The translations under genes were made by a program, and so were the position numbers. 44,679 nucleotides of DNA, from the sequence record PQ314493; one strand, written 5' to 3'. This DNA is from Escherichia phage vB_EcoS_UALMA_PCEc3. A model generated the notes under the pieces. The model was not told where the DNA came from. It did no database searches and was given only the letters and a program-made list of their open reading frames with translations. Shown here in pieces: positions 29,910 to 44,501 of the stretch (position 1 is its first letter; each line of letters opens with the position of its first letter).

Positions 29910-29932
29910 TGGATTGTATCATCTTTCATGTA

Positions 29933-30878: not shown

Positions 30879-30936
30879 ATCAATCCATCTCTTAACAAAT
30901 AAAAAAGGATGTACCGATTATGGCACATCCAATTAT

Positions 30937-31410
30937 TTACTCTTTAGCTTTTCGTGCTGCTTCGTTAGCCGCCTTAATCTTGCGCCAGGAGCGACACTCT
31001 GGCTTGGTTGCTAGCTCCGCCTCAGTAACCACGCGCAGCATGTGACGCTTTTTGCAGCGCAGGGTTAGAGGCTTTCCGTTGCCATCGAATTGCAGATCTG
31101 GTCGGCAGAATGTAGCGCGAAAACCTTTTCCATTTCGCTTATAGTAGTTGTGCGACAACTGAGCGCCACGCGCAGAAATCATCCCACGCTTAAACCATTC
31201 TTCTACAGCCTGAGGTGTCACCTTTAACTGCTTTGCGATATTTGCCTTTGTGCCGAAGAAATCAAGAACAATCTCTAGCCGCGAGCGTAGCCCGGCTCTT
31301 ACTTCATCTTTTAAAACATAGTAGCCTGAAGGTCGTTTACGTTGCTTTTTGTCTTCGGTGCGGATGGTTCCGTTATTGCCGTTAATGGTTCGCTTGTCAA
31401 CTGCACTCAT
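30937..31410 (-). CDS. HTH DNA-binding protein (putative transcriptional regulator)
   Basis: HTH-like segment NIAKQLKVTPQAVEEWFKRG; basic; first gene of minus-strand operon. Confidence 0.5.
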   Translation of the reverse strand: MSAVDKRTINGNNGTIRTEDKKQRKRPSGYYVLKDEVRAGLRSRLEIVLDFFGTKANIAKQLKVTPQAVEEWFKRGMISARGAQLSHNYYKRNGKGFRATFCRPDLQFDGNGKPLTLRCKKRHMLRVVTEAELATKPECRSWRKIKAANEAARKAKE

Positions 31411-31421
31411 TTCATTACCTC

Positions 31422-31440
31422 AATAGCATTTTTTGTTAAA
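31422..31440 (+). promoter_or_regulatory. degenerate box variant in divergent HTH/helicase intergenic region
   Basis: aatagcattttttgttaaa. Confidence 0.35.
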
Positions 31441-31511
31441 AGTCATTATGATTTGATGGTAGTATTGTACTCAATTAAACGCTACAAGACAATTTTTATA
31501 GGAATTTAGAT

Positions 31512-33722
31512 ATGTTGCCTATCGAGAAGCTGGTTGCAAACTTCGATAAAGAAAGAATCAAGCAGATTCAGAAAGACTATCAGTTTGGTGAGATAACCCC
31601 TTACGAGTTTCAGTGCGTGACATTTGATGCAATCGGAAAGGCTATTGGGAAGTACGAAGCACCATTTATCGCAGACCTTTCCGTATCGGCTGGTAAGACA
31701 ATCATCCTGGCTATGATTGGAAAGCGTATGGAGCAGCTTGGTCTTCCTTATATGGTTCTATCTCGACAGTCAGAGATAATCAGCCAGAACTCAGAAGAGC
31801 TTCGTAATTTCGGCATCCGTAACAGCGTCTATTGCGCTGGCCTTAACGTTAAATCGGTTTACTATCCAACCATAGTTGCCAGCGAGGGTACGGCTGCTAA
31901 CGGATTGTTTAAGGGGCTTGGTGACTATGTTCCGGCTGTTATAGCTATCGATGAGTGTCATATGGTGGACCACATGGATATCGTGGAAGCCGAAGAGAAC
32001 GAAGAAACATTTGAGCAAATGAGCACAAAGAAAGGCGAGATGGTTTTCAAGGATGGTGTTAACACTGGATTAATTGGCACTGGTCGAGCTCAGTACACGC
32101 TAATTATCACTGAGATGAAACGTCGCTGCCGTGAGAAATACGGGAGGGAGCTTAGGATTTTTGGACTAACTGGTAGCCCGTATCGTAACAACGATCATAT
32201 CGTCGTTAGCAACCCAAACATCCGTGGATTCTGGCGCAAGACGGTTATTCAGGTTCCAACCAATTACCTGGTTGATTTAGGTTTCGTTGTTCCCACTGTT
32301 TACGGTGAGGTTGGCGATTTGGGTTATGACCTTGCTGAGTTCGCGCCGGATGGCAGCGATGGTGTGAAAGACTTCAGCAAAAAAGAAATGGATGCTATGC
32401 AGGAAAAAATTCATCAAAACCAGTCCATGACTCAAAAGATTATGCAGTTCGCAGCCAAGTTTATGGAAACTCGTAACGCAGCACTAGTAACTTGCTCAGG
32501 CAAGCGGCATTGCGAGGAAGCAGCCGCGGCGCTTCCTGAGGGTGTAACCTGGGCTATAGTAACTGACTCGACTGGTGAGAAAAAGCGTCGTGAGATTCTT
32601 TCTGACGCAGCTGAAGGTAAGTATACATTCATCTTTCAGATTGGTTGCCTCACAACCGGCGTGAACGTTCCGCCATGGGACACGTCAATAATTCTTCGAA
32701 AGGTTGGTAGCATCACGTTACTGATTCAGCTTTTGGGGCGAGGTATGCGAATCCTTAAGAAGAAACATAAAGAGATGGGGATGGTTAAAAATGACCACGT
32801 AGTTTTAGATTTCGCTGGCACTCTTGATGACATGGCAGAATTATACTTTGACCCAATCATAGAGAAGGTTCAGGATCAGAAATTCAAGTTATCAATGATG
32901 CTTAGTGATAAGCCAAGAGTGTGCCCAGAGTGTTCTTACGAAAATCCTCATTCTGCAGGTCGCTGTAATAATGTGATTTCCGGTAAGCGATGCGAGCACT
33001 TCTTTAAGTTTAAATTATGTGAAGATGTAGTTGACCCGAAGACAAAAGTTATCATTAAGAAGGGTTGCGGAGCGAAGAATGATGTTAAGGCAAAGAGTTG
33101 TCGATGCTGTGGAGAGATGCTTGCGGAGCCGAGAATTTGCCCAGCTTGTTCTTATGAGAACTTCCCATCCGCACGCCGTTGCAATAACTTAATTGAAGGT
33201 AAACGATGTGAGCACTTCTTTCAGTTCACAACTTGCGAAGACATTAAGGACCCGCAAACTAAATCGGTAATTAAAAAGGGATGTGGCGCTCGTAACGATA
33301 TAGCAGCAAAGGCTTGTCGGGAGTGTGGTGAGATGCTTAAAGACCCGAATGTTAACCTGACTGGCAAGATGTATCGTCGTGGTGATTACCTTCGTGTTTA
33401 TGATTTTCAAGTTGGGTTAAGTAAGAATCAGACAGGCGTTGTAGTTAAGTACAATATCATGGCTCATAACGGAGAGAGATTTAACGCTTGGGAGTTCTTT
33501 AATCCAGAATCAGACCATAGAGTTTGCAGTGTGCTGTGGAAAAACTTTTGCCTTGCTCACATTGAAAATCGCGCTGAAGCTGCACGGATTGGTAGGCTGA
33601 AAAATTCTAGGATGATTATGACTAACGTAGATAAGTTTCGCACCCCTGTTCAGGTAACGCACCGCAAGAATAGCAAAGGAAAGGACGTGATAGCTTTTAA
33701 GAACTTTGGAGAATTGTTATGA
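31512..33722 (+). CDS. SF2 DECH-box helicase with tandem C-terminal zinc-ribbon modules
   Basis: Walker A SAGKT, DECH box (AIDECHMV), two ~72-aa Cys-rich repeats. Confidence 0.75.
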   Translation: MLPIEKLVANFDKERIKQIQKDYQFGEITPYEFQCVTFDAIGKAIGKYEAPFIADLSVSAGKTIILAMIGKRMEQLGLPYMVLSRQSEIISQNSEELRNFGIRNSVYCAGLNVKSVYYPTIVASEGTAANGLFKGLGDYVPAVIAIDECHMVDHMDIVEAEENEETFEQMSTKKGEMVFKDGVNTGLIGTGRAQYTLIITEMKRRCREKYGRELRIFGLTGSPYRNNDHIVVSNPNIRGFWRKTVIQVPTNYLVDLGFVVPTVYGEVGDLGYDLAEFAPDGSDGVKDFSKKEMDAMQEKIHQNQSMTQKIMQFAAKFMETRNAALVTCSGKRHCEEAAAALPEGVTWAIVTDSTGEKKRREILSDAAEGKYTFIFQIGCLTTGVNVPPWDTSIILRKVGSITLLIQLLGRGMRILKKKHKEMGMVKNDHVVLDFAGTLDDMAELYFDPIIEKVQDQKFKLSMMLSDKPRVCPECSYENPHSAGRCNNVISGKRCEHFFKFKLCEDVVDPKTKVIIKKGCGAKNDVKAKSCRCCGEMLAEPRICPACSYENFPSARRCNNLIEGKRCEHFFQFTTCEDIKDPQTKSVIKKGCGARNDIAAKACRECGEMLKDPNVNLTGKMYRRGDYLRVYDFQVGLSKNQTGVVVKYNIMAHNGERFNAWEFFNPESDHRVCSVLWKNFCLAHIENRAEAARIGRLKNSRMIMTNVDKFRTPVQVTHRKNSKGKDVIAFKNFGELL

Positions 33723-34138
33723 ATATTAAAGATAAAGAAGATTACATTGAGTTCTACCCGGGTCCTGTTAAATCATGCCCAAAGGAGGATGACGAACAAA
33801 TCTTTTGCTCTGATTGGGTTAAGTATAACTACCCGGAGATGGTATTTTTCCACTGCGTAAATGAGGGGAAGAAAACCATTGGACAGGCAAGAAAGGACCA
33901 GGCTAAAGGGCTACTTAAAGGCGTGTCAGACTGCATGTTTCTTATTCCCGAGTCTCTGCGAGGCAAATACCCTTTCGGAGCTATAGAGCTGAAGAGGGCT
34001 GGCAAAACTCAGGCTAGCCCAGTCAGTGACGAGCAGAAGTCTTTCCTTAAAAGCGTGAGAGAATCAGGGGGTTTCGCTGGGGTTGCCTACGGTAGAGAGG
34101 GTTTTCTGGCAGCGTTTAGAGAAATGATTTCAAAATAG
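33719..34138 (+). CDS. VRR-NUC-like PD-(D/E)XK nuclease (putative)
   Basis: D...IELK...SDEQ motif arrangement; ATGA overlap with helicase stop. Confidence 0.5.
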   Translation: MNIKDKEDYIEFYPGPVKSCPKEDDEQIFCSDWVKYNYPEMVFFHCVNEGKKTIGQARKDQAKGLLKGVSDCMFLIPESLRGKYPFGAIELKRAGKTQASPVSDEQKSFLKSVRESGGFAGVAYGREGFLAAFREMISK

Positions 34139-34153
34139 CACTAATTGCTAAAC
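34133..34153 (+). promoter_or_regulatory. palindromic box copy; -10 TATAGT 34173-34178
   Basis: aaatagcactaattgctaaac; contains TAG stop of VRR-NUC gene. Confidence 0.6.
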
Positions 34154-34216
34154 ACTTATCGCAGGGATGCGATATAGTTACTCCATCGAAACGAAACGCA
34201 CAAAGAGAGAAAGAAA

Positions 34217-34417
34217 ATGGCTACTATCTTTACTGGTAAATTCTACGAATCACGCAAGACTGGTTACATTTACGAACTGCAAGTAACTGAAGATGGTTAT
34301 GTTCTGGTTGATATCGAAGACTGTACATACGCATTCGAAGTTAGCCCAACCTACAAAGACGACCTAGAAACTGTTAAAAACGCATTTGGCGAAAAATTTG
34401 ATGAGGTATCGGAATAA
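34217..34417 (+). CDS. hypothetical protein (66 aa)
   Basis: ORF after box copy cassette with RBS. Confidence 0.45.
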   Translation: MATIFTGKFYESRKTGYIYELQVTEDGYVLVDIEDCTYAFEVSPTYKDDLETVKNAFGEKFDEVSE

Positions 34418-34638
34418 TGGAAATTTTTAAGTTTGAAGAGCAGTGGGATTATTTCAAAGCTATGGCTGTACAGGAACTGCATAAGTCAGGATACAAGGGA
34501 GACAAATGGTTTTTAGCTGACTGCCTAGACATGAGTTTTGAGGAAGACTACTTAAACACCGATATCGAAACATGGCGCGACCGCATGGTTGCTGATATCG
34601 AAGAAATGAAGAAAGATTGCCCAGAGGATTTTGAATAA
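34417..34638 (+). CDS. hypothetical protein (73 aa)
   Basis: translationally coupled ORF. Confidence 0.45.
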   Translation: MEIFKFEEQWDYFKAMAVQELHKSGYKGDKWFLADCLDMSFEEDYLNTDIETWRDRMVADIEEMKKDCPEDFE

Positions 34639-34763
34639 TGAAAATCGTAGACAAAGAGATGTTCGAAATTGCACAGACTTACGCAAATGATGCTGTAAAA
34701 ACTGGCTCAGAATGGTCATGGATGTGTGCTAAAGAATACCTAAAAATGGCTTGCGGATTATGA
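34638..34763 (+). CDS. small protein (41 aa)
   Basis: ATGA-coupled short ORF, below track cutoff. Confidence 0.3.
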   Translation: MKIVDKEMFEIAQTYANDAVKTGSEWSWMCAKEYLKMACGL

Positions 34764-35008
34764 TAGTTGAAACAGGACGCGCCGCTGTTTGGGCGCATTG
34801 TGGAGAGGCTGGGCTGCAAGATGACATTAAGCAGATATCCCGATTCTTTGACATAAAAGATATCAGCGTTGTGTTCAATGGTAAACTCTCTTACATGGAT
34901 GAGCTCCCAAGAAAATACGTAAGAGTTAAGCCAGGTGTCAGGATTGATGTTAACGAGTTCCTTAAATCTGAGGGATTCAAGTTTAAGATAACGAAGCCTA
35001 AGGATTAA
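34760..35008 (+). CDS. hypothetical protein
   Basis: track ORF 34751..35008; ATG 34760 overlaps upstream stop. Confidence 0.4.
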   Translation: MIVETGRAAVWAHCGEAGLQDDIKQISRFFDIKDISVVFNGKLSYMDELPRKYVRVKPGVRIDVNEFLKSEGFKFKITKPKD

Positions 35009-35010
35009 GT

Positions 35011-35262
35011 ATGTTGGGTTTAGATTTTCAGCCAGGGCATTACGATTTAGTGCATGGGCAAAGTGGAACCAAGTTTAGAGCGATACCTATTGCTGATTGG
35101 TTCCCTCCTGATTATGTGGATGTTAATGCAAAAACTAAAGACGGGAAGTGGGTTCAGATTTACTACTCCCCAGCATGCGGAAACCTTTGCATGACTGACC
35201 TTGATCAGAAATTAGCAATTAGTGCGGAAGTTATCGACTACTGGTTGAAAGAAGTTGAATGA
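35011..35262 (+). CDS. hypothetical protein (83 aa)
   Basis: ORF from track. Confidence 0.4.
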   Translation: MLGLDFQPGHYDLVHGQSGTKFRAIPIADWFPPDYVDVNAKTKDGKWVQIYYSPACGNLCMTDLDQKLAISAEVIDYWLKEVE

Positions 35263-35345
35263 AGAGCCTGATACTAGTAGCATTAGTCCCACTGTTTAGC
35301 TTTACTATCTTATACTTTATCGTAATGAATTAAGGAACTTATATA

Positions 35346-36476
35346 ATGGCAACTGCAAAAATTACCAACGAAGAGCTGCGCGAAGAACTGGCAAATGGCA
35401 TGACCAACAAGGCAATCGCAGAGAAGTACGGAATGAACATTCGCAATGTTGAGTTGCGTCGCAGTAAATTGGCAAAATCAGGCGAGCTTCATGGAAACCC
35501 TGGTATCAAGAAGTTAGTCCCTGACGGTTATATGGTCAAAGGAACTTCAACGATGATTGACGCGGCGGGTAATGAAAAGCTTCGCTGGGTTAAAACCTCT
35601 GTAGATAATGAGCGCCTTGAGGTTTTAATGGAGCAAGCTAGAGAGGCATTTTGTTCTGAGCTGCCAAAAGCAGATGCGGTCAGCCACTCAGGCAACGAAG
35701 TTAACTCTGAATTAATGACTCTTTACCCTATTTTCGATATCCATATCGGCATGATGGCGCATCGCCATGAATCTGGTGAGAATTATGACACTAACACGGC
35801 AGAGAAATTAATGGAATCATATTTCGACCATGCAATTTCTGTATCACCTGCGTCAGAGAAAGCCGTTGTTTTAGTTGGCGGCGACTTCCTTCACTCTGAC
35901 GGACTGGAGGCAGTAACTCCAGCAAGTGGTCACTGCCTTGATCAAGATAGTAGATATGCTAAGTTAGTTTATGTTGCAATTCGCTCAATTCGTGGTGCCA
36001 TAGAGAAGATGCTTAAGAAGCATAAGAATGTCGAGATTCAGATTATAGAGGGAAATCATGACCAAAGCGGCATGATCTGGCTTCGCGCTGCAATGGCTGC
36101 ATTTTATGAAAACGAGAATCGCGTGTTTGTTGATACCAGTCCAGCAATCATGCACAAGACGCGATTTGGCTCAACGTTACTTGGTTACACACACGGTCAC
36201 ACGATGAAGAAAGCCGAGGGTCGACTTGCGGCAATGGCGACTGACTACCGTAAAGACTTTGGTGAATGTGAATTTGTTTACTGCCACTCAGGACATTTCC
36301 ATCATGCAACTGTTACAGAGTGCACACTTGGTATTGACGAGGTTCACCCAGCACTGGCCAGTAAGGACGCATATGCCGCACGTGGAGGTTGGCGCTCATA
36401 CCGTCAAGCGGCTGCGATAGTTTACCACAAGAATTTTGGCGAGGTTGGTCGCCATATTTACCGCCCAGGCATGTAA
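35346..36476 (+). CDS. HTH-containing metallophosphoesterase (calcineurin-like, putative)
   Basis: N-terminal HTH-like segment; phosphoesterase motifs GDFLHSDG and GNHDQSG with downstream His-rich segments. Confidence 0.5.
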   Translation: MATAKITNEELREELANGMTNKAIAEKYGMNIRNVELRRSKLAKSGELHGNPGIKKLVPDGYMVKGTSTMIDAAGNEKLRWVKTSVDNERLEVLMEQAREAFCSELPKADAVSHSGNEVNSELMTLYPIFDIHIGMMAHRHESGENYDTNTAEKLMESYFDHAISVSPASEKAVVLVGGDFLHSDGLEAVTPASGHCLDQDSRYAKLVYVAIRSIRGAIEKMLKKHKNVEIQIIEGNHDQSGMIWLRAAMAAFYENENRVFVDTSPAIMHKTRFGSTLLGYTHGHTMKKAEGRLAAMATDYRKDFGECEFVYCHSGHFHHATVTECTLGIDEVHPALASKDAYAARGGWRSYRQAAAIVYHKNFGEVGRHIYRPGM

Positions 36477-36496
36477 ATAGCACATTTTGTTAATAA
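36475..36496 (+). promoter_or_regulatory. degenerate box variant followed by hairpin
   Basis: aaatagcacattttgttaataa then gcctcaaaggattgaggc. Confidence 0.4.
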
Positions 36497-36550
36497 AGCC
36501 TCAAAGGATTGAGGCAAAATGAATAAACGATAACGAGATGAGGAGTTATA

Positions 36551-37024
36551 ATGATTTACGTATTTGATATTGACGGAACTATAGCTAATAATGAGCATAG
36601 AAATCACCTTTTACCATCCAGTGACCTTCACTTGACTTCAAGTTGGAAGTATTACAATAAAGCCTGTTCTGGAGACTCACCAATAATCCCAATGATAAAC
36701 ATGATGAACAAACTTGCGGAATTATGTCCTGTTTACATAATGACATCCAGAAGTGATGAAGTTGAATGGAGAACCCTTGAGTGGCTTCAGGATAATAAGG
36801 TTGAGTATGATTCGATATACATGAGAAGTCGACATGACAACCGAAAGGATTACAAAATAAAAGAGGGATGGCTTAATGAAATCAGTGGTGGCGATAAAGG
36901 AAGTGTGGTTATTTTTGAAGATAACCCACAAGTAATTAAGCACCTAAGAAGTTGCGGATACACCGTTATGGCTGTATGTGAATATGAAGAACTACCTAAA
37001 GATTGCGAATCTCACGGAGAATGA
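36551..37024 (+). CDS. HAD-superfamily phosphatase (putative)
   Basis: N-terminal DIDGT motif; box copy upstream. Confidence 0.5.
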   Translation: MIYVFDIDGTIANNEHRNHLLPSSDLHLTSSWKYYNKACSGDSPIIPMINMMNKLAELCPVYIMTSRSDEVEWRTLEWLQDNKVEYDSIYMRSRHDNRKDYKIKEGWLNEISGGDKGSVVIFEDNPQVIKHLRSCGYTVMAVCEYEELPKDCESHGE

Positions 37025-37581
37025 AAATGACTAAATTATTTATCCTTAATGGCCCCGCTGGAGTTGGCAAGGACACTATAGCGGATATCATGGTTGAGAC
37101 TGGTGTAGCCAAAGAAAAGGTATCATTCAAGTCACCAATTTTTAACGTTGCAAAAGGAATGCTATCAAGCGATGAATTTGATGGATTCATCAAGAATTAC
37201 GACAATAGAGACTATAAGGAATCACCTCATGGATTTCTTGGAGGTATGACAGTTCGTGAATTTATGATTTGGATTAGCGAGTCTGTAATGAAGCCAGTCT
37301 TTGGTGATGATATTTTCGGTAAAAGGCTAGCCCAGTCACTTGGTTATGGTTGCTACATTTGCGCTGATGGTGGATTTGCTAGCGAGATTAAGCCACTGAT
37401 CTACGCTGGTGTTGAGGTCACGTTAATCAGATTGCATAGGGCAGGGTACACATTTGATGGCGATAGTCGCTCATACATTCACGGGGTGTGCGCAAGAGAA
37501 ATTGATGTTCGTGTTGTTGATTGTGATATTGATGGAACATCAGCATTTGTAAGGCACGTAATAAATAGCACGAATTGCTAA
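37021..37581 (+). CDS. P-loop nucleotide/nucleoside kinase (putative)
   Basis: Walker A NGPAGVGKDT; ATG 37021 overlaps upstream stop (track start TTG 37003); C-terminus NSTNC encoded by box. Confidence 0.55.
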   Translation: MKMTKLFILNGPAGVGKDTIADIMVETGVAKEKVSFKSPIFNVAKGMLSSDEFDGFIKNYDNRDYKESPHGFLGGMTVREFMIWISESVMKPVFGDDIFGKRLAQSLGYGCYICADGGFASEIKPLIYAGVEVTLIRLHRAGYTFDGDSRSYIHGVCAREIDVRVVDCDIDGTSAFVRHVINSTNC

Positions 37582-37583
37582 AG
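37563..37583 (+). promoter_or_regulatory. palindromic box copy; -10 TATCAT 37603-37608
   Basis: aaatagcacgaattgctaaag; encodes C-terminal NSTNC + TAA of kinase gene. Confidence 0.6.
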
Positions 37584-37649
37584 ATAATAATAAAAACTGA
37601 GTTATCATTAACACATCGAAACGAGATGAAACAAAAGAGGAAGCACAAA

Positions 37650-37826
37650 ATGACTAAAATGATTTATTGCACCAAAAACAACTCCAAGACGCTGCCATTT
37701 ACAGTTAACCAGCCGTACAATGCAGAGTATCAAGGTGACGGATACTACAAGATTTATGGCGACGATATGACGTGGATTTTAGCGCCGATTGATGGTTCGC
37801 TGGTTGAATTTATTATCGCAGACTAG
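37650..37826 (+). CDS. hypothetical small protein
   Basis: track ORF 37575..37826; likely start ATG 37650 after cassette leader and RBS. Confidence 0.4.
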   Translation: MTKMIYCTKNNSKTLPFTVNQPYNAEYQGDGYYKIYGDDMTWILAPIDGSLVEFIIAD

Positions 37827-37851
37827 CGCATCTAAAACATAGCTTTACAAG

Positions 37852-37880
37852 TGGGGGGCCTTTTGGCTCCCCTTTTTTAT
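37852..37880 (+). terminator. rho-independent terminator
   Basis: hairpin ggggggccttttggctcccc + T-run. Confidence 0.6.
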
Positions 37881-37945
37881 GCTTCTTTTCCGAGCGGTGC
37901 TAATGTATCATTCTTTTACTAACTTAAACATTGACAAATACACAA

Positions 37946-38173
37946 ATGGAGGATCACATGAGGGAAGTAATCAACGCTGCTACGGCGTCAACTGGAGGGG
38001 CAGCGGTAACTGGAGCGGCAACTGGTCAGATGACTATAGCAATAATCAGCCTTATCGCTTTAATCATTTTTGGTGCGTGGGGTGCTTACTGGAAGTTTAA
38101 GGATAGCCAGGCGATTCGGCGCGCTCTTGAATCAGGAGACTTAAAAACAGCAATCAAGATAAGGAGTAAGTAA
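37946..38173 (+). CDS. pinholin-like holin (two TMDs, possible dual start)
   Basis: Gly/Ala-rich weakly hydrophobic TMD1 and strongly hydrophobic TMD2; two in-frame ATGs (37946, 37958) after RBS; immediately upstream of SAR endolysin. Confidence 0.55.
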   Translation: MEDHMREVINAATASTGGAAVTGAATGQMTIAIISLIALIIFGAWGAYWKFKDSQAIRRALESGDLKTAIKIRSK

Positions 38174-38659
38174 ATGAAGCAGAAGCTGCTAATTAGCGCG
38201 GCTACGGCTGCGGCAATATACATCGCAGCACCGCTTATTGAGCTCGTAGAGGGTGTGGAAAACAAGCCTTACATGGACATTGCTGGAATCCCTACTGTTT
38301 GCTCTGGCGTTACTGGCCCTGACGTAATTTGGGGTAAGACTTACAGCAACAGGGAGTGCCGTAACCTGCTGGAGAAGCACATCCAGATTCATGCTAAGTA
38401 TGTTCAGGATGCGGTCACCTACCCAATTGCACCGCAGACAAGGGCGGCGTTAATCAGCTTTAGCTATAACGTTGGTGGTAATGCTATGAGGAAATCTACT
38501 GCCGTTAAGTTAATTAACCAGGGTAAGATTGAGCGGGGTTGCAAGGCTCTCGGGATGTGGACAAAGGCTACCATTAATGGCAAAAAGGTTGTAGTTAAGG
38601 GTTTGGTTAATCGCAGGAATGAGGAGATTAAGTTATGTTTAAGCGGATTGCAGCGTTAG
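38174..38659 (+). CDS. SAR endolysin (T4/lambda-type lysozyme fold)
   Basis: N-terminal signal-anchor-release-like segment; catalytic E-x8-D-x5-T spacing (VEGVENKPYMDIAGIPT). Confidence 0.8.
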   Translation: MKQKLLISAATAAAIYIAAPLIELVEGVENKPYMDIAGIPTVCSGVTGPDVIWGKTYSNRECRNLLEKHIQIHAKYVQDAVTYPIAPQTRAALISFSYNVGGNAMRKSTAVKLINQGKIERGCKALGMWTKATINGKKVVVKGLVNRRNEEIKLCLSGLQR

Positions 38660-39024
38660 TAATGTGCGCAGCTTTATCTGGGTGCTCAGCAACCTCTGCT
38701 CTGACAGGATTAATTGGCAGTAAGCCAGAGATTAGCGCTCAAGCTGGTGCAGAAAACAATAAGGTTGGTGTTGGTTTAACGAACAGGGTTGACTCAAGTA
38801 ACTCCAGCGATGCCACAGTTAAGGATTCCAGCGTGGGCTCACTGGATAGTTCTAGCGGGAAAAAGACTGCTGATAATTCGATTAAGGCCTCTACAATCAC
38901 TGCCGAAAAGATTGAGATTACCAATAACGACTCATCAGCGCTTCCGTGGATTGGAACAGGAGCGATGGGTTTGCTGGTTATGATTCTCCTTGCCTTAATC
39001 TTAAGACGTAAAAAAGCCTCCTAA
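38635..39024 (+). CDS. unimolecular spanin (T1 gp11-like)
   Basis: lipobox LSGC near N-terminus plus C-terminal transmembrane helix followed by RRKKAS. Confidence 0.65.
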   Translation: MFKRIAALVMCAALSGCSATSALTGLIGSKPEISAQAGAENNKVGVGLTNRVDSSNSSDATVKDSSVGSLDSSSGKKTADNSIKASTITAEKIEITNNDSSALPWIGTGAMGLLVMILLALILRRKKAS

Positions 39025-39038
39025 TGGAGGCTATATTT

Positions 39039-39374
39039 TTAGCTAAATAACTCTTCGTCAGTCATTGTCCCTATGTTCATCATCTCTTTTATGTACTGGC
39101 TTTCATACCCGTTAAGCGCCTCAAAGTTGAAACCAAATGGCCTCTTCAAGCTACCCTTACTAACAAACTCACCGCACTTGCCATCAATGTATCCGGCACT
39201 CAACATCTTTGCGCAGAACTCCTTTGAAGCTGCGATGCAAAAATCTCGATGCGATAACCCCGCCGCCTTACTGAATCTCTGAGAGTCCTTATGCTTGTAG
39301 ATGAATCGCGCCAAATGCTGGCGCGTGAAGTATGAATACGACTCACAGAAGCGGTATAAATCCAAAATAAACAT
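39039..39374 (-). CDS. hypothetical protein (111 aa)
   Basis: ORF from track, last gene of minus-strand operon. Confidence 0.4.
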   Translation of the reverse strand: MFILDLYRFCESYSYFTRQHLARFIYKHKDSQRFSKAAGLSHRDFCIAASKEFCAKMLSAGYIDGKCGEFVSKGSLKRPFGFNFEALNGYESQYIKEMMNIGTMTDEELFS

Positions 39375-39462
39375 TTCAACCTCAAGGTAGCGTGATTGCT
39401 AAAATGTATGGCCCAAAAACCAAGCAGAGAGCAATAAAAACCCACAAATATTCATTCATAAA

Positions 39463-41046
39463 TCACCCCAGCAATCTCGGATTAATGTAAACTTTATCAC
39501 CAATCAGGCACGTATAGTTTTTCTCATCAAGCATTGGCAGTAGGTGATCTTTAATCTTCGTCATTACTCCAGCCTGAGCCTCGAATGGCTTAACCTTTCG
39601 CGCCGCTTCATACAATGAGCGAATGCCAACAACACCCTTACCGTTTTTACCCTGCTTGATCAGGATATCAATCAGCTTATTCATCTCGGCATTGTCGCCA
39701 GCGTGACCAGCCGCGTTGGCAGATGACAGATAAGTCTTGCTAAGTTCCTGGAACATGATTACAGCTTCCTGCATGGTGTCGAGTTCAATTTCTCTGGACT
39801 TCTGCGGGCTACCGCCGTTAGGGTTGAACCAGTTACGAACAGTATGGAGAACCGCCGCAATCCTGATTGCCTGTTTATCGAACTTACCAAGCGCGCCGCG
39901 CAACATTGTGTGTGAATACTTACCGCCGTCAGCAAGGTGCGGCTCCATTTCCTGACGCGCTCTGTTGAGGTATTTCATTGCCGAGTTACTCACTGTCAAT
40001 TTTACATCTTGCTCATTCATTATTTCGTGAACAAGACGGAAGTAGTCAGCCTTCAGGCAACCATCAATTGGCTCATACGTTGATTCGCCATTTTCATCAA
40101 CGAATACACGCTCACCCAAGAATGACTTTTCACGCACAAGCAGGAAGCGCTCCGATACACCGATACCACGTGCGCCAGCATTCATGATTGCATTGATTGT
40201 TTCATCCTGCGCAATTACCGATATGCAACCCATAGCAACGAAGCTCATGTTGTTCTCTGCGTTCGCACGCGCAATAGATACGTTACCAGCATCCCACGCT
40301 TTAAGCACAAGTTCGCTGTTCGTCTTCTTCGAGCCGTCACCGTAAGTCATTCCCAATAGTGAGTTAACACTCGTTGCCTCATCAGAGATGACCGCGAAGT
40401 TGCCCTGACGGTTGTTTATTCGTGCAAGACCTTCCGGTGTGGTATCTGATACCGGGAATACGATATCGCACAGTTTCTCGAGCTTCTCCTCTAACTCCTC
40501 TTTCTCCTCAAAAAGTGAGGCCATCTCTGATGGTGACTTTTCCTGTTTCATCTCTTTTGATAATGCAGACAGCTTTGCCATAATCTTTTTGCGCTCACGC
40601 TTCCGCACTTCATTAAGCCGCTCAGTCTCAGCGATCATTGGAGCAATTGAGAGCGAGTTAATTGCTGATTTACCTGTCGATGGCGGCTGGCTTGTTACGA
40701 CGTATAGCGAAGTCGGTTGCTGGGTTCCGTGATACTCTACTGTAAAACGTCCCAGCATGGCGGCAGAAATACACCCCATAAAGTGCATATAAGCTGAAGA
40801 CTCTGGAAATTGGACAGAACGGGCAATATTGGCTGACAGCTTACCAACAACATCAATGTCATTACCGAGTGAGATTACGGGATACTTGTCATTAGCCGCA
40901 TCAATCTCGACTGGTGCTTTCCAGAATGATTGAGACTGGCGATAGCCATTGGCATTAATGGCGACTCGCAGTGGCGGGAGGTTGTCTGCGGCAGCAATTG
41001 CCATAACCTGTTCAACAGATAGTTTATCTTCGTTGAAATCAAACAT
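39463..41046 (-). CDS. P-loop NTPase-like protein (deviant Walker A PSTGKS, Walker B VISDE); long paralogue
   Basis: 527 aa; N-terminal ~45 aa and C-terminal ~70 aa homologous to ORF 43459..43983. Confidence 0.55.
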   Translation of the reverse strand: MFDFNEDKLSVEQVMAIAAADNLPPLRVAINANGYRQSQSFWKAPVEIDAANDKYPVISLGNDIDVVGKLSANIARSVQFPESSAYMHFMGCISAAMLGRFTVEYHGTQQPTSLYVVTSQPPSTGKSAINSLSIAPMIAETERLNEVRKRERKKIMAKLSALSKEMKQEKSPSEMASLFEEKEELEEKLEKLCDIVFPVSDTTPEGLARINNRQGNFAVISDEATSVNSLLGMTYGDGSKKTNSELVLKAWDAGNVSIARANAENNMSFVAMGCISVIAQDETINAIMNAGARGIGVSERFLLVREKSFLGERVFVDENGESTYEPIDGCLKADYFRLVHEIMNEQDVKLTVSNSAMKYLNRARQEMEPHLADGGKYSHTMLRGALGKFDKQAIRIAAVLHTVRNWFNPNGGSPQKSREIELDTMQEAVIMFQELSKTYLSSANAAGHAGDNAEMNKLIDILIKQGKNGKGVVGIRSLYEAARKVKPFEAQAGVMTKIKDHLLPMLDEKNYTCLIGDKVYINPRLLG

Positions 41047-41101
41047 TACTTCTCTCCGTGTTGTTTCTGAGCGGCCATTATATCAACGACCGCTTATAAT
41101 T

Positions 41102-41122
41102 CATTATCAATTTGTGCTATTT
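41102..41122 (-). promoter_or_regulatory. box variant (minus orientation) upstream of NTPase-like gene
   Basis: minus-sense aaatagcacaaattgataa. Confidence 0.45.
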
Positions 41123-41471
41123 ACAGGTACTGGGCCTCAAAATGGTACGTCTGGCAAAGAGTGTAAAATCCAACATCCTCGCTACGGTAGAGCTGCCAGG
41201 CATTACCATCCTCATCGTAAATGTAACCAGCGGATTGACCTAGTCCAGCGTGAAGGTTAACCTGGTAACGTTTCTCTTCTTTAAAGTCTTTTTTAACTCC
41301 TGATTTATGGTTAACCTTAGTACAGTAAATAGTTTTGGTCTTAATGTATTTGCCGCGCTCTTCCAGGTTAATCCATTTGCCATCTTTCTTGATTTGTTCT
41401 ACACCATCTTTAACTCGAGCTTTGTATAATACGTTATCGTTGCTAATGAAGTTTTTAGTAATCGTTGTCAT
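41121..41471 (-). CDS. hypothetical Lys-rich protein (116 aa)
   Basis: ORF from track; stop overlaps box copy. Confidence 0.45.
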   Translation of the reverse strand: MTTITKNFISNDNVLYKARVKDGVEQIKKDGKWINLEERGKYIKTKTIYCTKVNHKSGVKKDFKEEKRYQVNLHAGLGQSAGYIYDEDGNAWQLYRSEDVGFYTLCQTYHFEAQYL

Positions 41472-41532
41472 TTTGTTTGCCTTTTTGTGTTTCGTTTCGA
41501 TGAGATGAATATACAGGAAAAGCCCCGAAGGG

Positions 41533-41553
41533 CTTTAGCAATTCGTGCTATTG
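41533..41553 (-). promoter_or_regulatory. palindromic box copy (minus orientation) followed by hairpin and conserved leader
   Basis: minus-sense aatagcacgaattgctaaag then gcccttcggggc then ctcatcgaaacgaaac. Confidence 0.5.
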
Positions 41554-41696
41554 CGGGCTTTTTCTATCGCCTTAAGCATAATTTCATGACTCTCCAGCAA
41601 GTCTTCGCGAAACCAATCACCGCAAGGCCAGCCCTTTCCGCTATAGGCACTTATGACCTCAAGATCGAAATAATTTATCTCAGATGGTAGAAGCAT
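41535..41696 (-). CDS. small protein (53 aa) ending NSTNC
   Basis: short ORF whose last codons are the box; not in track. Confidence 0.25.
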   Translation of the reverse strand: MLLPSEINYFDLEVISAYSGKGWPCGDWFREDLLESHEIMLKAIEKARNSTNC

Positions 41697-41698
41697 CA

Positions 41699-41935
41699 CT
41701 ACACCTCGTCAAAAGTTGCAATTCCAGGAATAAACATTCCAACCTTCCAGCCTGCAATGGAAATCCATCCAGAATTGTGCTTGTGCGGTCGCTCAGCGCC
41801 ATTAATCACCCACTCGTTCGGGATTGTCTTCCCGTTAATGATTAGTGGCTCAGCGTCGTATACATAGCCTTTTACGAATGGCGTTAAGACTTTCTTGTCG
41901 GTACTGGTGATGCAATTAGTGCAGCGAATTTTCAT
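41699..41935 (-). CDS. hypothetical protein (78 aa)
   Basis: ORF from track. Confidence 0.4.
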   Translation of the reverse strand: MKIRCTNCITSTDKKVLTPFVKGYVYDAEPLIINGKTIPNEWVINGAERPHKHNSGWISIAGWKVGMFIPGIATFDEV

Positions 41936-42120
41936 ATTTGAACCTCGACCTCATCCTCGAAAACTGTAGCTGGCTTACCAACTGAGTTAATAATGTCAAA
42001 TGATTTAAGTTCAGTATCCCTATCAACAACATCGTAGACCTTGCCAATGAAAAGGCCATAATCAATTTCATCTGACCCGTCCATGTCAATATCTTTAAAC
42101 TTAACTAACTTGATTTTCAT
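41932..42120 (-). CDS. hypothetical protein (62 aa)
   Basis: ORF from track, coupled to neighbours. Confidence 0.4.
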   Translation of the reverse strand: MKIKLVKFKDIDMDGSDEIDYGLFIGKVYDVVDRDTELKSFDIINSVGKPATVFEDEVEVQI

Positions 42121-42310: not shown

Positions 42311-42399
42311 ATCTATCTCCTCGTTTTGATGAGTTAACTATATCCTCCATGACCCCCAATGTCTTTAGCAAAAAGTGCTACTCGTTAGATTTATGTATT

Positions 42400-42979: not shown

Positions 42980-43459
42980 ATGAGCGAGAAGGTAACATTA
43001 GGCCAAGTGATTCGTGAGATGGTAAAAGCAGCGCTTAAGTCTGAGGATAAGCAGATCAGCGTGACACTCAACAAGATTGAGAGCCTTATTGGTGCCGAAG
43101 ATGGTGGCCTACACAAGCTTAAGAGCTCATACATCTATAATACAACGGCTCGCATGCCTGAGTTGAGAGATGCAGGACTGAAGGCAACTCACCATTATGA
43201 TGAGGATGAGGGTGATAGTGAGTTTGGTGAAACCACTCTGGCTGGAGACAAGAAGCTGGTTATTAAGCTTATTCCCGGCACGGCAAACATTGGAATCAGA
43301 AAGAAGACCAACGACGCGGTCAAGGATGAGGCAATCACTGAGTTCAAGGCCAGGATCTGCAAGTTGATGCCAGACCTATCTGAGTATGAGGGTGAAGCGC
43401 TTGCAGCCGCTATGAAGGCCATTAAGGATTACCGTTTAATTATTGAGGAGATTAAGTAA
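42980..43459 (+). CDS. hypothetical protein
   Basis: track ORF 42971..43459; ATG 42980 after RBS gagagga. Confidence 0.45.
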   Translation: MSEKVTLGQVIREMVKAALKSEDKQISVTLNKIESLIGAEDGGLHKLKSSYIYNTTARMPELRDAGLKATHHYDEDEGDSEFGETTLAGDKKLVIKLIPGTANIGIRKKTNDAVKDEAITEFKARICKLMPDLSEYEGEALAAAMKAIKDYRLIIEEIK

Positions 43460-43983
43460 TGTTTGACTTTAACGAGGATAAACTGACAGAAGAGCAGGTA
43501 ATAGAGATAGCCAAGCAAGATGGAATGCCTCCGCTGCGAATTGCAATCAATGCTAACGGGTATCGACAGTCAACGGCGTTTTGGGGCTCGATTGATATCT
43601 CAGAGGTGTATAGTGGTGATGAGCTTGGTGTACTGATTAAAATCATCAGGAAGATAGGAGTTAACGGCAAAGTAGTTGTCGGCATCAGATCTCTATATGA
43701 AGGCGCTCGCAAGTTAAAGCCATTTGCTGGGCGCGATGGAATGATGCTAGTGATCAAGGACAAGCTAATTCCAGAGCTCGATAAGATGAATGTTACCTGT
43801 CTAATTGGAGATAAGGTTTACTTCAACCCCTCCTTGACGGATTTAAGCTGGCAACCAAACTTCAAAACTTGCGAAGGTGAGCATGTTAGTAGACTACCAT
43901 ACCACTTGCGGTACAGAGAGGAAGAGGTGGAGATGGCGATTGAGTTCCACCGGAAAGCTAAACCACTCCTGAACGGTGAATAG
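43459..43983 (+). CDS. short paralogue of the P-loop NTPase-like protein (lacks NTPase core)
   Basis: MFDFNEDKL...INANGYRQS N-terminus and VVGIRSLYE...TCLIGDKVY C-terminal block shared with 39463..41046. Confidence 0.55.
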   Translation: MFDFNEDKLTEEQVIEIAKQDGMPPLRIAINANGYRQSTAFWGSIDISEVYSGDELGVLIKIIRKIGVNGKVVVGIRSLYEGARKLKPFAGRDGMMLVIKDKLIPELDKMNVTCLIGDKVYFNPSLTDLSWQPNFKTCEGEHVSRLPYHLRYREEEVEMAIEFHRKAKPLLNGE

Positions 43984-43998
43984 CACGGATTGCTAAAC
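43978..43998 (+). promoter_or_regulatory. palindromic box copy; -10 TATAAT 44018-44023
   Basis: gaatagcacggattgctaaac; contains TAG stop of short paralogue. Confidence 0.6.
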
Positions 43999-44047
43999 AA
44001 TGGATCGGGTAGTCAGCTATAATTACCACATCGACAACAAAGAGGAA

Positions 44048-44254
44048 ATGAAGATGAAAACTATGATTATCGAAGATTTCTCAGGTGACATCACTGAGGT
44101 GTCTGCTTCAGTATATTACGACGGCATCGTGAGCATTGACATTGACACGGATAACTTAGGCGATGAAATTACTATGTCTCACTATACACCAGAGCAAGCG
44201 CGCAAACTGGCGGCGGCATTAATCATGGCGGCGGAAGAGTCAGAGAAGCAATGA
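44048..44254 (+). CDS. hypothetical protein
   Basis: track ORF 44000..44254; likely ATG 44048 after cassette leader and RBS agaggaa. Confidence 0.4.
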   Translation: MKMKTMIIEDFSGDITEVSASVYYDGIVSIDIDTDNLGDEITMSHYTPEQARKLAAALIMAAEESEKQ

Positions 44255-44267
44255 ATGAGAAATTATA

Positions 44268-44486: not shown

Positions 44487-44501
44487 CACTTTTTGTTAAA
44501 A
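44481..44501 (+). promoter_or_regulatory. degenerate box variant
   Basis: aaatagcactttttgttaaaa. Confidence 0.4.

What the first reader, a model, noticed from the sequence alone, without database searches (positions are those of the whole stretch)
37563..37583. The box doubles as a two-frame translational stop; three unrelated ORFs end in the identical pentapeptide NSTNC
Within the box, TAG (positions 4-6) and TAA (positions 17-19) lie in two different frames. Upstream genes end at the TAG in at least 7 copies (ORFs ending at 261, 1723, 5529, 34138, 43983, 44486 and the 34-aa ORF ending 1156). Three ORFs instead read through to the TAA and acquire the same C-terminus AAT AGC ACG AAT TGC TAA = N-S-T-N-C-stop (23877..24182, 37021..37581, and the 53-aa ORF 41535..41696). 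Two further genes stop with a TAA overlapping the first A of the box (25835, 36476). The element therefore acts as a portable gene-boundary module, consistent with cassette-like gene gain and loss at these sites.
Basis: seen in the sequence. Interest (0 to 1): 0.6.

Follow-up and report, generated by a model that had tools for sequence, protein, structure and literature searches.

The report
Stop codons inside phage promoter boxes
In this T1-like phage the 21-base box is the front half of a promoter repeated 19 times; because genes are packed tightly, the preceding gene usually runs into the box and stops at a stop triplet the box happens to contain, which looks ordinary, although the box also matches the binding site of the host's MarA/SoxS/Rob stress regulators.

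Summary
The window is a whole T1-like coliphage genome (PP134917.1). It carries 19 copies of the box. In 13 of them the stop codon of the annotated upstream gene lies in the box: TAG in 7, TAA in 3 (giving the tail NSTNC), and t|AA over box bases 1-2 in 3.

The box is not a stop module. It is the upstream half of a roughly 75-bp promoter-leader unit: box, 19 bp, a TATAGT-like -10, a conserved leader, a ribosome-binding site, then ATG. The same 21-nt repeat was described in phage TLS in 2024, with no function assigned.

TAG and TAA are kept about as well where no gene uses them. An orthologue in T1 ends at the other box stop. The tails follow box nucleotide variants. The stop use is therefore best read as a by-product of genome compaction.

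The cassette idea is partly supported. Gene-content breakpoints against six relatives are enriched at box junctions, and four cassettes are bounded by boxes on both sides.

New lead: from its third base the box matches the E. coli marbox consensus (6 copies perfectly, 14 with at most one mismatch). Orientation and spacing are those of class II promoters such as micF. There is no -35, and no AraC-like phage protein was detected among 48 proteins scanned. Binding by Rob, MarA or SoxS is untested.

The parts
37563..37583 (+). Focal box AAATAGCACGAATTGCTAAAG. Bases 37565..37583 match the marbox consensus with one mismatch (final G). The TAA at 37579..37581 is the stop of CDS 37027..37581.
37603..37608 (+). 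-10 hexamer TATCAT, 19 bp after the box. The predicted start site is about A37615. The leader ACATCGAAACGAG and the ribosome-binding site follow, then the ATG of the next gene at 37650.
   Evidence: The start site is inferred, not mapped.
37027..37581 (+). 184-aa ATPase-like gene (homologue of T1 gp62) ending ...VINSTNC* in the box. Orthologue tails are NSTNC, NSTNR in TR2, and ...FINK* at the box TAG in T1.
23877..24182 (-). 101-aa ORF ending NSTNC* in box 23875..23895. The whole gene is a cassette lying between two boxes. It does not align in SU57, FP, BEK6 or Rtp.
41535..41696 (-). 53-aa ORF ending NSTNC* in box 41533..41553. It is conserved at 85-98% amino-acid identity in six relatives.
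256..276 (+). Box. Its TAG is the stop of CDS 1..261. -10 is TGtTATAGT.
976..996 (+). Box free of any ORF; the upstream gene ends 91 nt earlier. It keeps both TAG and TAA.
1151..1171 (+). Box. Its TAG is the stop of the 34-aa CDS 1052..1156.
1718..1738 (+). Box. Its TAG is the stop of CDS 1580..1723. The second stop is lost here (TCA instead of TAA).
5524..5544 (+). Box. Its TAG is the stop of the large terminase gene 3964..5529.
12591..12611 (+). Degenerate box in the tail region, free of any ORF.
23875..23895 (-). Box. Its TAA is the stop of CDS 23877..24182.
24192..24212 (-). Box in a divergent intergenic region, free of any ORF. It is the promoter box of cassette 23877..24182.
25834..25854 (+). 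Box. t|AA over box positions 1-2 is the stop of the exonuclease VIII gene 24870..25835.
29889..29909 (+). Orphan box. It points antisense toward the 3' end of the primase gene, has its best -10 at a 21-bp gap, and has no downstream + strand gene.
30942..30962 (-). Weak box inside the 3' end of the Cro-like regulator gene 30937..31410. The -10 CATAAT lies in the loop of a terminator-like hairpin. It is the promoter box for the primase gene.
34133..34153 (+). Box. Its TAG is the stop of CDS 33719..34138.
36475..36495 (+). Degenerate box. t|AA is the stop of the exonuclease gene 35346..36476.
41102..41122 (-). Box. t|AA is the stop of CDS 41121..41471.
41533..41553 (-). Box. Its TAA is the stop of CDS 41535..41696. 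A terminator-like hairpin AAAGCCCTTCGGGGCTTTT lies in the promoter spacer.
42363..42383 (-). Box. The upstream gene stops 7 nt before it.
43978..43998 (+). Box. Its TAG is the stop of CDS 43459..43983.
44481..44501 (+). Box. Its TAG is the stop of CDS 44268..44486.
36490..37628 (+). Two-gene cassette (PNKP-type phosphatase plus ATPase) bounded by the modules at 36475 and 37563. It does not align in BEK6 or Rtp. ACG-M12 has an extra HNH gene here, with a box on each side.
43998..44481 (+). Cassette bounded by boxes 43978 and 44481. It does not align in BEK6, and a similar segment (44065..44498) does not align in SU57.
1044..1151 (+). Mini-cassette (34-aa ORF) bounded by boxes 976 and 1151. It does not align in BEK6.

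Best explanation
The 21-bp box is the upstream, activator-site half of a promoter-leader module of about 75 bp. The module is repeated 19 times in this T1-like (Drexlerviridae) genome and a comparable number of times in each of seven relatives examined. Its layout is: box, 19 variable bp (often a hairpin), a TATAGT-like -10, the leader TTACCnCATCGAAACGA, a ribosome-binding site, then ATG.

Shown:
- The genome is packed so tightly that the preceding gene usually runs right up to the module. It is then closed by whichever stop triplet the box offers in its frame: TAG (box 4-6), TAA (17-19, giving the tail N-S-T-N-C), or TAA formed by a preceding T plus box bases 1-2.
- These triplets are conserved where no gene uses them, so they are kept for the DNA-level function. 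Stop use is a by-product of compaction.
- The roughly 75-bp modules sit at the edges of variable gene cassettes.

Inferred:
- From its third base the box is a forward-oriented marbox (AYnGCACnnWnnRYYAAAY). It lies 19 bp from the -10, is centred near -42, and has no -35. That is the architecture of class II promoters activated by the monomeric AraC-type factors MarA, SoxS and Rob. TAG falls in the element aTAGCAC and TAA in gCTAAA.
- No AraC-like phage protein was detected, so the most likely reader is a host marbox protein. Rob is the constitutively abundant one.
- The homologous modules may serve as recombination substrates, as PeSLs do in T4-type phages. Alternatively they may simply travel with self-promoted gene cassettes.
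For: - Copy number and orientation.
- Fixed geometry: -10 at a 19-bp gap in 16 of 19 copies; ATG 73-87 nt from the box start in 16 of 19 copies.
- Across 8 genomes, 21 of 25 perfect-consensus sites and 59 of 95 one-mismatch sites have TAnnnT exactly 19 bp downstream, against a background of 1.6%.
- The same repeat was published for TLS, with 21 copies about 76 nt upstream of start codons (PMC11447400).
- Canonical sigma-70 promoters are not enriched: 33 found, 39.7 in shuffles.
- Stops: (95 of 150 family sites have an ORF ending in or at the box; TAA is kept in 43 of 45 TAG-terminated sites).
- Tails track box variants, and T1 gp62 uses the TAG.
- Junction gaps are 58-87 nt at boxes against a median of 12 nt elsewhere.
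- Marbox: the consensus is quoted in PMC3709825. The window has 6 perfect and 14 one-mismatch-or-better hits, and each genome has 12-21, against about 1 in shuffles.
- micF in MG1655 has marbox 84..102, a 19-bp gap, a -10 at 122..127 and its start site at 135. In waaYP1 the GCA lies at -48..-46.
- Class II rules and the lack of a -35 are described in PMC6900184, PMC12052159 and PMC10268841. Here the mean match to TTGACA is 1.0 of 6.
- The mar marbox is verified as ATGCCACGTTTTGCTAAATC.
- No AraC or HTH_18 hit among 48 phage proteins.
- The box is invariant between T1 and this phage, while the only recognisable phage helix-turn-helix regulator is 52% identical with a variable recognition helix.
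- Breakpoints.
Against: - No transcription start site, binding or expression data exist for any of these promoters; everything is inferred from sequence.
- Rob is largely sequestered and MarA and SoxS are low in unstressed cells (PMC10268841). From my own knowledge, T1-like phages grow well in ordinary broth, which sits awkwardly with dependence on these factors.
- The box is more conserved than the marbox consensus requires (A at marbox position 3, T at 11-12, AA before it). It also contains a 5+5 dyad, TAGCA-N5-TGCTA, that could suit a dimeric phage protein.
- Six of 19 copies have an extended -10 (TGn) and might fire without an activator.
- The copies are related by descent, so the counts are not independent.
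- The breakpoint enrichment is moderate (p=0.02 within non-structural regions). No clean box-to-box recombinant junction could be resolved.
Confidence: 0.7

Rival explanations
1. The box is selected as a portable stop and gene-boundary module: its stop triplets are maintained so that any gene placed upstream by cassette exchange is terminated, and the boxes drive gene gain and loss.
For: - Thirteen of 19 upstream genes end in the box, in three frames, and 95 of 150 sites do so across 8 genomes.
- A T precedes the box in 11 of 19 copies, which closes the third frame.
- Marbox position 3 (A) and position 15 (T) are more conserved than the marbox consensus requires, and these are the bases that create TAG and TAA.
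- Breakpoints are enriched at boxes, and four cassettes are flanked by boxes.
Against: - TAG and TAA are equally present where unused: all five free boxes, and 43 of 45 TAG-terminated sites keep TAA.
- Two-frame stops occur in a quarter of AT-rich 21-mers.
- The box has a fixed 19-bp relation to a -10 hexamer, which a stop module would not need.
- Sixteen breakpoint junctions lack boxes.
Confidence: 0.12
2. The box is the operator of a phage-encoded protein. Candidates are the conserved Cro-like regulator (window 30937..31410, a T1 gp23 homologue) or an unrecognised small early protein. The protein would act either as an activator replacing -35 recognition or as a stoperator-like repressor that shuts off these promoters.
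For: - The box contains the dyad TAGCA-N5-TGCTA, with half-sites 10 bp apart.
- The extra conserved bases (A3, T12) extend that dyad.
- The phage encodes one helix-turn-helix protein (P22_Cro-like, E=3.9e-6).
- The TLS authors proposed stoperator or enhancer-site roles.
- Many small early ORFs have no assigned function.
Against: - The conserved flanks are asymmetric (AAA...AAA, C7 opposite T11), and the element is strictly directional relative to the -10.
- The box is invariant between T1 and Rtp-like phages, although the regulator is only 52% identical and its recognition helix differs.
- Promoters with about 1 of 6 matches to a -35 would still need some activator if the protein is a repressor.
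- No temperate functions are annotated in the record.
Confidence: 0.22
3. The box is read directly by host RNA polymerase, as an UP-like A-rich element plus a displaced -35-like TTGCTA, so the promoters need no activator.
For: - TTGCTA matches TTGACA at 4 of 6 positions, and A-tracts flank the box.
- Six of 19 copies have an extended -10.
- UP-element similarity was suggested for TLS.
Against: - TTGCTA lies 22 bp from the -10. From my own knowledge of promoter architecture, that is outside the usable sigma-70 spacer range.
- At a 17-bp spacing the mean match to TTGACA is 1.0 of 6.
- The GC-containing core GCAC is not UP-like, and the exact fit to the marbox consensus would be a coincidence of roughly 2^-22 per position.
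Confidence: 0.12
4. The box acts as an RNA or DNA hairpin (UAGCA-loop-UGCUA) at the 3' end of upstream messages, as a terminator, processing site or stabiliser.
For: A 5-bp stem is predicted at -3.7 kcal/mol. Hairpins are common in the adjacent spacers.
Against: - The stem is weak.
- Across 95 distinct box variants, changes occur mostly on the 3' arm and are essentially never compensated; the 5' arm is nearly invariant.
- No T-run follows the box.
- No Rfam family matches.
Confidence: 0.03

Closest known systems
21-nt direct repeats of T1-like phages (TLS 'DR' elements; German, Misra, Kropinski 2024, PMC11447400; also noted there for T1, Rtp and Rogue1)
   Same: Same consensus (aaATAGCACnnnTTGnTAAAA), about 20 copies per genome, co-oriented with transcription, about 76 nt upstream of start codons, in the same phage family. 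This is the same element.
   Different: That paper left the function open (stoperator, enhancer site or UP element). It did not report, in the passages I read, the overlap with upstream stop codons, the fixed 19-bp link to a -10, the conserved leader, or the marbox match.
Class II MarA/SoxS/Rob (marbox) promoters of E. coli and Salmonella, e.g. micF, waaY/rfaY P1, lpxC P2
   Same: Match to AYnGCACnnWnnRYYAAAY and to GCAHWWWWTGYYAAA. Forward orientation. A 19-bp gap to the -10, exactly as in micF. GCA near -48..-46, as in waaYP1. No -35 and a canonical -10.
   Different: The sites are in a virulent phage, with 19 near-consensus copies in 45 kb, far closer to consensus than most chromosomal sites. 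They show extra conserved bases and a conserved transcribed leader. No binding or activation data exist.
PeSLs (promoter-early stem-loop cassettes) of T4-type phages (Arbiol et al. 2010, PMC2839356; Comeau et al. 2014, PMC4122927)
   Same: Short repeated promoter-containing modules, concentrated among small non-essential ORFs, that mark insertion, deletion and replacement boundaries between close relatives. Some modules here also hold terminator-like hairpins.
   Different: PeSLs carry strong complete sigma-70 promoters plus an effective terminator. Here there is no -35, and only some modules have terminator-like stems. Recombination between modules and mini-circles are not shown here. The sequences are unrelated.
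Stoperators of mycobacteriophage L5
   Same: Many short asymmetric sites oriented with transcription in a phage genome; the TLS authors made this analogy.
   Different: Stoperators are repressor sites of a temperate phage, scattered within transcription units. These boxes sit at a fixed distance from a -10 in a virulent phage, and no CI-type repressor was found among 48 proteins scanned.
MotA-box middle promoters of phage T4
   Same: Works alike: a phage promoter class in which a conserved box replaces the -35 and an activator redirects sigma-70 polymerase.
   Different: The MotA box is centred near -30 and is read by the phage proteins MotA and AsiA (from my own knowledge). No homologues of these were looked for specifically, and none surfaced in Pfam.

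Membership tests
T1-like phage 21-nt direct repeat (TLS DR) | Consensus aaATAGCACnnnTTGnTAAAA | tested here: met
   19 copies. Consensus taken from PMC11447400.
T1-like phage 21-nt direct repeat (TLS DR) | About 20 copies, oriented with transcription, about 76 nt upstream of start codons | tested here: met
   ATG lies 73-87 nt after the box start in 16 of 19 copies. All but the orphan at 29889 are co-oriented with a downstream gene.
T1-like phage 21-nt direct repeat (TLS DR) | Host genome is a T1-like siphovirus (Drexlerviridae) | tested here: met
   100% match to PP134917.1; 95% to SU57 and about 90% to ACG-M12 over the 4-kb query. Synteny with Rtp and T1.
Class II MarA/SoxS/Rob-dependent promoter | Asymmetric marbox AYnGCACnnWnnRYYAAAY (or GCAHWWWWTGYYAAA) | tested here: met
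   6 perfect and 14 one-mismatch-or-better sites in the window, against about 0.6 in shuffles. Consensus sequences.
Class II MarA/SoxS/Rob-dependent promoter | Forward orientation, overlapping the -35 region, centred near -41 | tested here: inconclusive
   Orientation and the 19-bp gap to the -10 are identical to micF, which predicts a centre near -42. No start site has been mapped for the phage promoters.
Class II MarA/SoxS/Rob-dependent promoter | No recognisable -35 but a canonical -10 | tested here: met
   Mean of 1.0 of 6 matches to TTGACA at 17-bp spacing. The -10 matches TATAAT at 4-6 of 6 positions. Compare PMC10268841.
Class II MarA/SoxS/Rob-dependent promoter | Bound and activated by MarA, SoxS or Rob | not testable with these tools
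   Needs EMSA, in vitro transcription and host mutants. No paper linking T1-like phages to these factors was found in the held library.
PeSL-type mobile regulatory cassette | Repeated promoter module concentrated among small accessory ORFs and lying at indel or replacement breakpoints between relatives | tested here: met
   15 of 19 versus 19 of 56 junctions (p=0.001). 14 of 18 versus 16 of 37 in non-structural regions (p=0.02). Four cassettes are flanked on both sides.
PeSL-type mobile regulatory cassette | Complete strong sigma-70 promoter plus an effective stem-loop terminator in each unit | tested here: not met
   No -35. Stable hairpins occur in about half of the modules, and only 30962 and 41553 are followed by a T-run.
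PeSL-type mobile regulatory cassette | Recombination between units (mini-circles, hybrid junctions) | tested here: inconclusive
   The junctions in BEK6 and Rtp carry the module type that precedes PNKP in ACG-M12, but no clean crossover could be mapped. Mini-circles need experiments.
Stoperator (L5-type repressor sites) | Sites of a temperate-phage repressor, placed within transcription units without a fixed relation to a promoter | tested here: not met
   There is a fixed 19-bp relation to the -10. The genome is a virulent T1-like one, and only a Cro-like helix-turn-helix protein was found.
Intrinsic terminator or structured RNA | Stable stem supported by compensatory changes, followed by a T-run | tested here: not met
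   -3.7 kcal/mol. Changes on the 3' arm are uncompensated across 95 variants. No Rfam hit.

The most novel reading that the evidence does not exclude
T1-like phages have wired most of their non-structural promoters to the host's MarA/SoxS/Rob stress and antibiotic-resistance regulators, through near-consensus class II marboxes that replace the -35. The stop codons of upstream genes are embedded in the activator site. Phage gene expression, and so infection success, would then depend on the host's Rob/MarA/SoxS state (bile salts, salicylate, redox stress). The many high-affinity sites on replicating phage DNA could also titrate these regulators away from host defence and efflux genes.
Probability: 0.35. 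Interest if true: 0.75.

Novelty: new member of a known kind. Interest (0 to 1): 0.4.

Why it matters
The stop-codon overlap itself mainly matters for annotation.
- C-terminal tails such as NSTNC are dictated by a DNA element, not by protein function.
- Some deposited start codons lie inside promoters, for example the CDS starting at 44000.
- The boxes are good landmarks for gene and cassette boundaries in Drexlerviridae.

The wider value lies in what the box is. T1-like phages have puzzlingly few recognisable sigma-70 promoters, and the function of their 21-nt repeat has been open since it was described. A precise, testable hypothesis now exists: class II marbox promoters read by Rob, MarA or SoxS.

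If true, it would link a common family of coliphages, which are also notorious laboratory and fermentation contaminants, to the host's multidrug-resistance regulon. It would also suggest simple ways to modulate their growth.

Tried and rejected
- **Phage-encoded MarA-like activator.** A Pfam scan of 48 small or unknown proteins found no AraC or HTH_18 domain. The annotated 'transcriptional regulator' is a single Cro-like helix-turn-helix protein with no close solved relative.
- **Hairpin or terminator role of the box itself.** The stem is weak and there is no covariation.
- **Known RNA family in the module or leader.** Rfam found only two tRNA hits.
- **Box as a -35.** TTGCTA is 22 bp from the -10, and there is no conserved alternative -10 at 17 bp.
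- **Excess of ordinary sigma-70 promoters that could make the boxes redundant.** None was found (only window 22000..41999 was scanned).
- **Mapping an exact box-to-box crossover for the PNKP-ATPase cassette.** The modules themselves are mosaic and no clean recombinant was seen.
- **Literature.** No paper in the held library links marbox, MarA, SoxS or Rob with T1-like phages. The Rtp genome paper is not held. A search for transcriptome or start-site data on Drexlerviridae returned nothing relevant.
- **IMG/VR scan.** A scan for AATAGCACnnnTTGCTAAA returned at least 120 stretches, with multi-copy hits almost all on contigs of 40-55 kb. I did not analyse these further.
Full report
**What the window is.** The 44,679-bp window is the complete genome of the record 'Pseudomonas phage PsgS01F' (PP134917.1), rotated and reverse-complemented, with one base different. 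Over a 4-kb query it is 95% identical to Escherichia phage SU57 and about 90% identical to ACG-M12. It is syntenic with Rtp and T1. It is therefore a T1-like siphovirus of the Drexlerviridae.

**Checking the observation.** Window 37563..37583 reads AAATAGCACGAATTGCTAAAG, with TAG at positions 4-6 and TAA at 17-19 in different frames. The box occurs 14 times at up to 3 mismatches (0.01 expected) and 19 times at up to 6 mismatches. I mapped the deposited CDS onto the window.
- Seven genes end at the box TAG: ends 261, 1156, 1723, 5529, 34138, 43983 and 44486.
- Three end at the box TAA with the tail NSTNC: 23877..24182(-), 37027..37581(+) and 41535..41696(-).
- A weak copy at 30962(-) lies inside the 3' end of a gene.
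- Five boxes are free of ORFs.

The three NSTNC proteins share only the tail. Boxes supply 7 of the genome's 15 TAG stops and 6 of its 44 TAA stops.

**Is it more than chance?** Stops in at least two frames occur in 15% of all 21-mers of this genome and in 26% of AT-rich ones, so the two-frame property is unremarkable. The shared pentapeptide follows automatically from the shared DNA. What is non-random is that genes abut the box. Stop-to-start gaps at box junctions cluster at 58-87 nt, which is the length of the module. Other co-directional junctions have a median gap of 12 nt, and many overlap. Once an ORF reaches the box it must stop there in two frames, and in the third frame too when a T precedes the box (11 of 19 copies).

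**What the box is.** Each box is followed by:
- 19 variable bases;
- a -10-like hexamer (TATAGT, TATAAT, TATGAT and similar; 16 of 19 copies at a gap of exactly 19 bp);
- a conserved stretch TTACCnCATCGAAACGA;
- a Shine-Dalgarno sequence;
- an ATG, 73-87 nt from the box start in 16 of 19 copies.

Across eight T1-like genomes, 21 of 25 perfect-consensus sites and 59 of 95 one-mismatch sites have TAnnnT exactly 19 bp downstream, against a background of 1.6%. Ordinary sigma-70 promoter matches are not enriched in the 20 kb scanned: 33 found, 39.7 in shuffles. The element is already in the literature. The 2024 re-annotation of phage TLS reports a 21-nt direct repeat, aaATAGCACnnnTTGnTAAAA, at 21 sites, oriented with transcription and about 76 nt upstream of start codons. 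It says similar repeats occur in T1, Rtp and Rogue1. Its function was left open, as stoperator, enhancer site or UP element (PMC11447400).

**Are the stops selected or a by-product?** Four lines of evidence point to a by-product.
- All five ORF-free boxes keep both TAG and TAA.
- Of 150 family sites, 95 have an upstream ORF of at least 35 aa ending in or at the box: TAG 45 (plus 11 with a tandem TAA-TAG), TAA 23, t|AA 16.
- TAA is retained in 43 of 45 sites where TAG has already ended the ORF. TAG and TAA are present in 77-80% of sites where neither is used.
- The ATPase-like gene 37027..37581 ends NSTNC in four Rtp-like phages, NSTNR in TR2 (whose box reads ...AATCGCTAA), and at the box TAG (...FINK*) in T1. 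Other tails read NSTNS and NSINC, following box nucleotide variants.

The tails are therefore dictated by the DNA element. The stop use reflects compaction onto a conserved site.

**A lead on how the box works.** From its third base the box matches the published MarA/SoxS/Rob binding-site consensus AYnGCACnnWnnRYYAAAY (quoted in PMC3709825). It also fits the ChIP-derived form GCAHWWWWTGYYAAA (PMC6900184).
- Scanning with the published consensus gives 6 perfect and 14 one-mismatch-or-better hits in the window. Each of the eight phage genomes has 12-21 hits, against about one in shuffles.
- The orientation is 'forward', with GCAC distal and AAA proximal to the -10.
- In E. coli micF, a structurally characterised class II promoter, the marbox 19-mer (L009 84..102) is followed by a 19-bp gap, the -10 TAGAAT and the annotated RNA start at 135. 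That puts the site centre at -42. The gap is the same as in the phage modules.
- In waaYP1 the marbox GCA lies at -48..-46, which matches the phage geometry.
- Class II promoters are defined by a forward marbox overlapping the -35, clustered near -41, and lacking a recognisable -35 (PMC12052159, PMC8811837, PMC10268841). The phage modules average 1.0 of 6 matches to TTGACA at 17-bp spacing.
- The mar operon's own marbox, verified in MG1655, reads ATGCCACGTTTTGCTAAATC on the forward strand. The phage and T1 boxes read ATAGCAC(G/T)(A/T)(A/T)TTGCTAAA(C/A).
- TAG and TAA therefore sit inside the two recognition elements, aTAGCAC and gCTAAA.

**Who reads the box?** A Pfam scan of 48 small or unassigned phage proteins found no AraC-type domain. 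The one recognisable regulator is a single-HTH Cro-like protein. It is only 52% identical between T1 and this phage, and its recognition helix differs, while the box is invariant. That favours a conserved host reader. Rob is the constitutively abundant marbox protein, but it is largely sequestered in unstressed cells (PMC10268841), which is the main argument against. I found no paper in the held library connecting marboxes with T1-like phages. This step is inference from sequence, and I put it at roughly 0.35-0.45.

**Testing the cassette interpretation.** I aligned the window to six relatives (SU57, ACG-M12, FP, TR2, BEK6, Rtp) and took the edges of unaligned segments of at least 60 bp.
- Of 90 distinct edges, 27 fall within 10 bp of a module, although modules cover 4% of the genome.
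- At the level of gene junctions, 15 of 19 box junctions are breakpoints against 19 of 56 others (Fisher p=0.001).
- Within the non-structural regions alone the counts are 14 of 18 against 16 of 37 (p=0.02).
- Four segments have both edges in adjacent modules: 1044..1151, 23895..24190 (the NSTNC ORF), 43998..44481, and 36490..37628. The last is the phosphatase-plus-ATPase pair ending at the focal box, and it does not align in BEK6 or Rtp.
- ACG-M12 has an extra HNH endonuclease gene at the same place, with a box on each side.

The prediction that related genomes show breakpoints at boxes is met. However, 16 breakpoint junctions lack boxes. The enrichment is moderate. I could not resolve a clean box-to-box crossover, because the modules themselves are mosaic. 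The data fit either recombination between modules, as shown for PeSLs in T4-type phages (PMC2839356), or cassettes that simply carry their own promoter.

**Alternatives considered.**
- A direct -35 role is unlikely, because TTGCTA is 22 bp from the -10.
- A hairpin role is unsupported: -3.7 kcal/mol, and 3'-arm changes are uncompensated in 95 variants.
- No Rfam family matches the module.
- A phage-encoded dimeric reader remains possible because of the 5+5 dyad TAGCA-N5-TGCTA and the extra conserved bases. Against it, the element is directional and its conserved flanks are asymmetric.

**Verdict.** Its core is an ordinary consequence of tight packing against a conserved, already described promoter repeat. 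The cassette-boundary idea is partly supported. The most interesting outcome is outside the original claim: the repeat has the sequence and geometry of a class II marbox promoter, which is a concrete and testable hypothesis for a feature of T1-like phages that has had no assigned function.

Noticed in passing
whole window (PP134917.1): The record names Pseudomonas syringae pv. garcae as host. Yet a 4-kb stretch is 95% identical to an E. coli phage (SU57), nearly all relatives found are coliphages, and the promoters carry an enterobacterial-type marbox. The host assignment looks doubtful. T1-like phages are known contaminants.
   Followed up: partly
window, about 6-25 nt after each -10 hexamer (e.g. 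37609..37627, 34179..34197): A conserved stretch TTACCnCATCGAAACGA(A) follows the -10 in most modules and in all eight genomes. It would form the first bases of the transcripts. Host-polymerase promoters do not normally need this, and I have no explanation for it.
   Followed up: partly
window 1161..1186, 25849..25872, 41083..41095 region, 44485..44515 and others: About half of the modules have a stable hairpin whose arms flank or include the -10 (e.g. GGGGTA...TACCCC; z down to -5.4). At 41553(-) and 30962(-) a terminator-like hairpin with a T-run sits inside the promoter spacer, and in one case the -10 lies in its loop.
   Followed up: partly
window 29889..29909 (+): An orphan box points antisense into the 3' end of the primase gene and a bidirectional terminator, with no + strand gene downstream. 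For the minus-strand tail-fibre gene it is in 'backward' orientation, just upstream of or over the start. Its role is unknown.
   Followed up: no
window 44000..44254 (+): The deposited start codon (44000) lies 22 nt after the box start, inside the promoter module. The in-frame ATGs at 44048 and 44054, behind a ribosome-binding site, fit the module architecture better.
   Followed up: partly
window 2937..3035 (+): The record's 99-nt 'tRNA-Ile' scores 39.4 bits with the Rfam tRNA model but is not called by ARAGORN. Only tRNA-Arg(tct) at 2853..2930 is found by both tools. It may be a tRNA with an insert or a pseudo-tRNA.
   Followed up: partly
L003 (ACG-M12) 39194..39688; also HNH genes in Rtp, T1 and TR2: In ACG-M12 a free-standing HNH endonuclease gene sits between two box modules, where this phage has none. 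This suggests that homing-endonuclease cassettes use or carry these modules. The HNH genes in Rtp, T1 and TR2 were not checked.
   Followed up: partly
window 28309: There is a single-base difference between the window and the deposited record PP134917.1.
   Followed up: no
window 31410..31512: The divergent intergenic region between the Cro-like regulator and the helicase gene has two ordinary sigma-70-like matches on the minus strand and no box. This could be an activator-independent entry point of the transcription programme.
   Followed up: no
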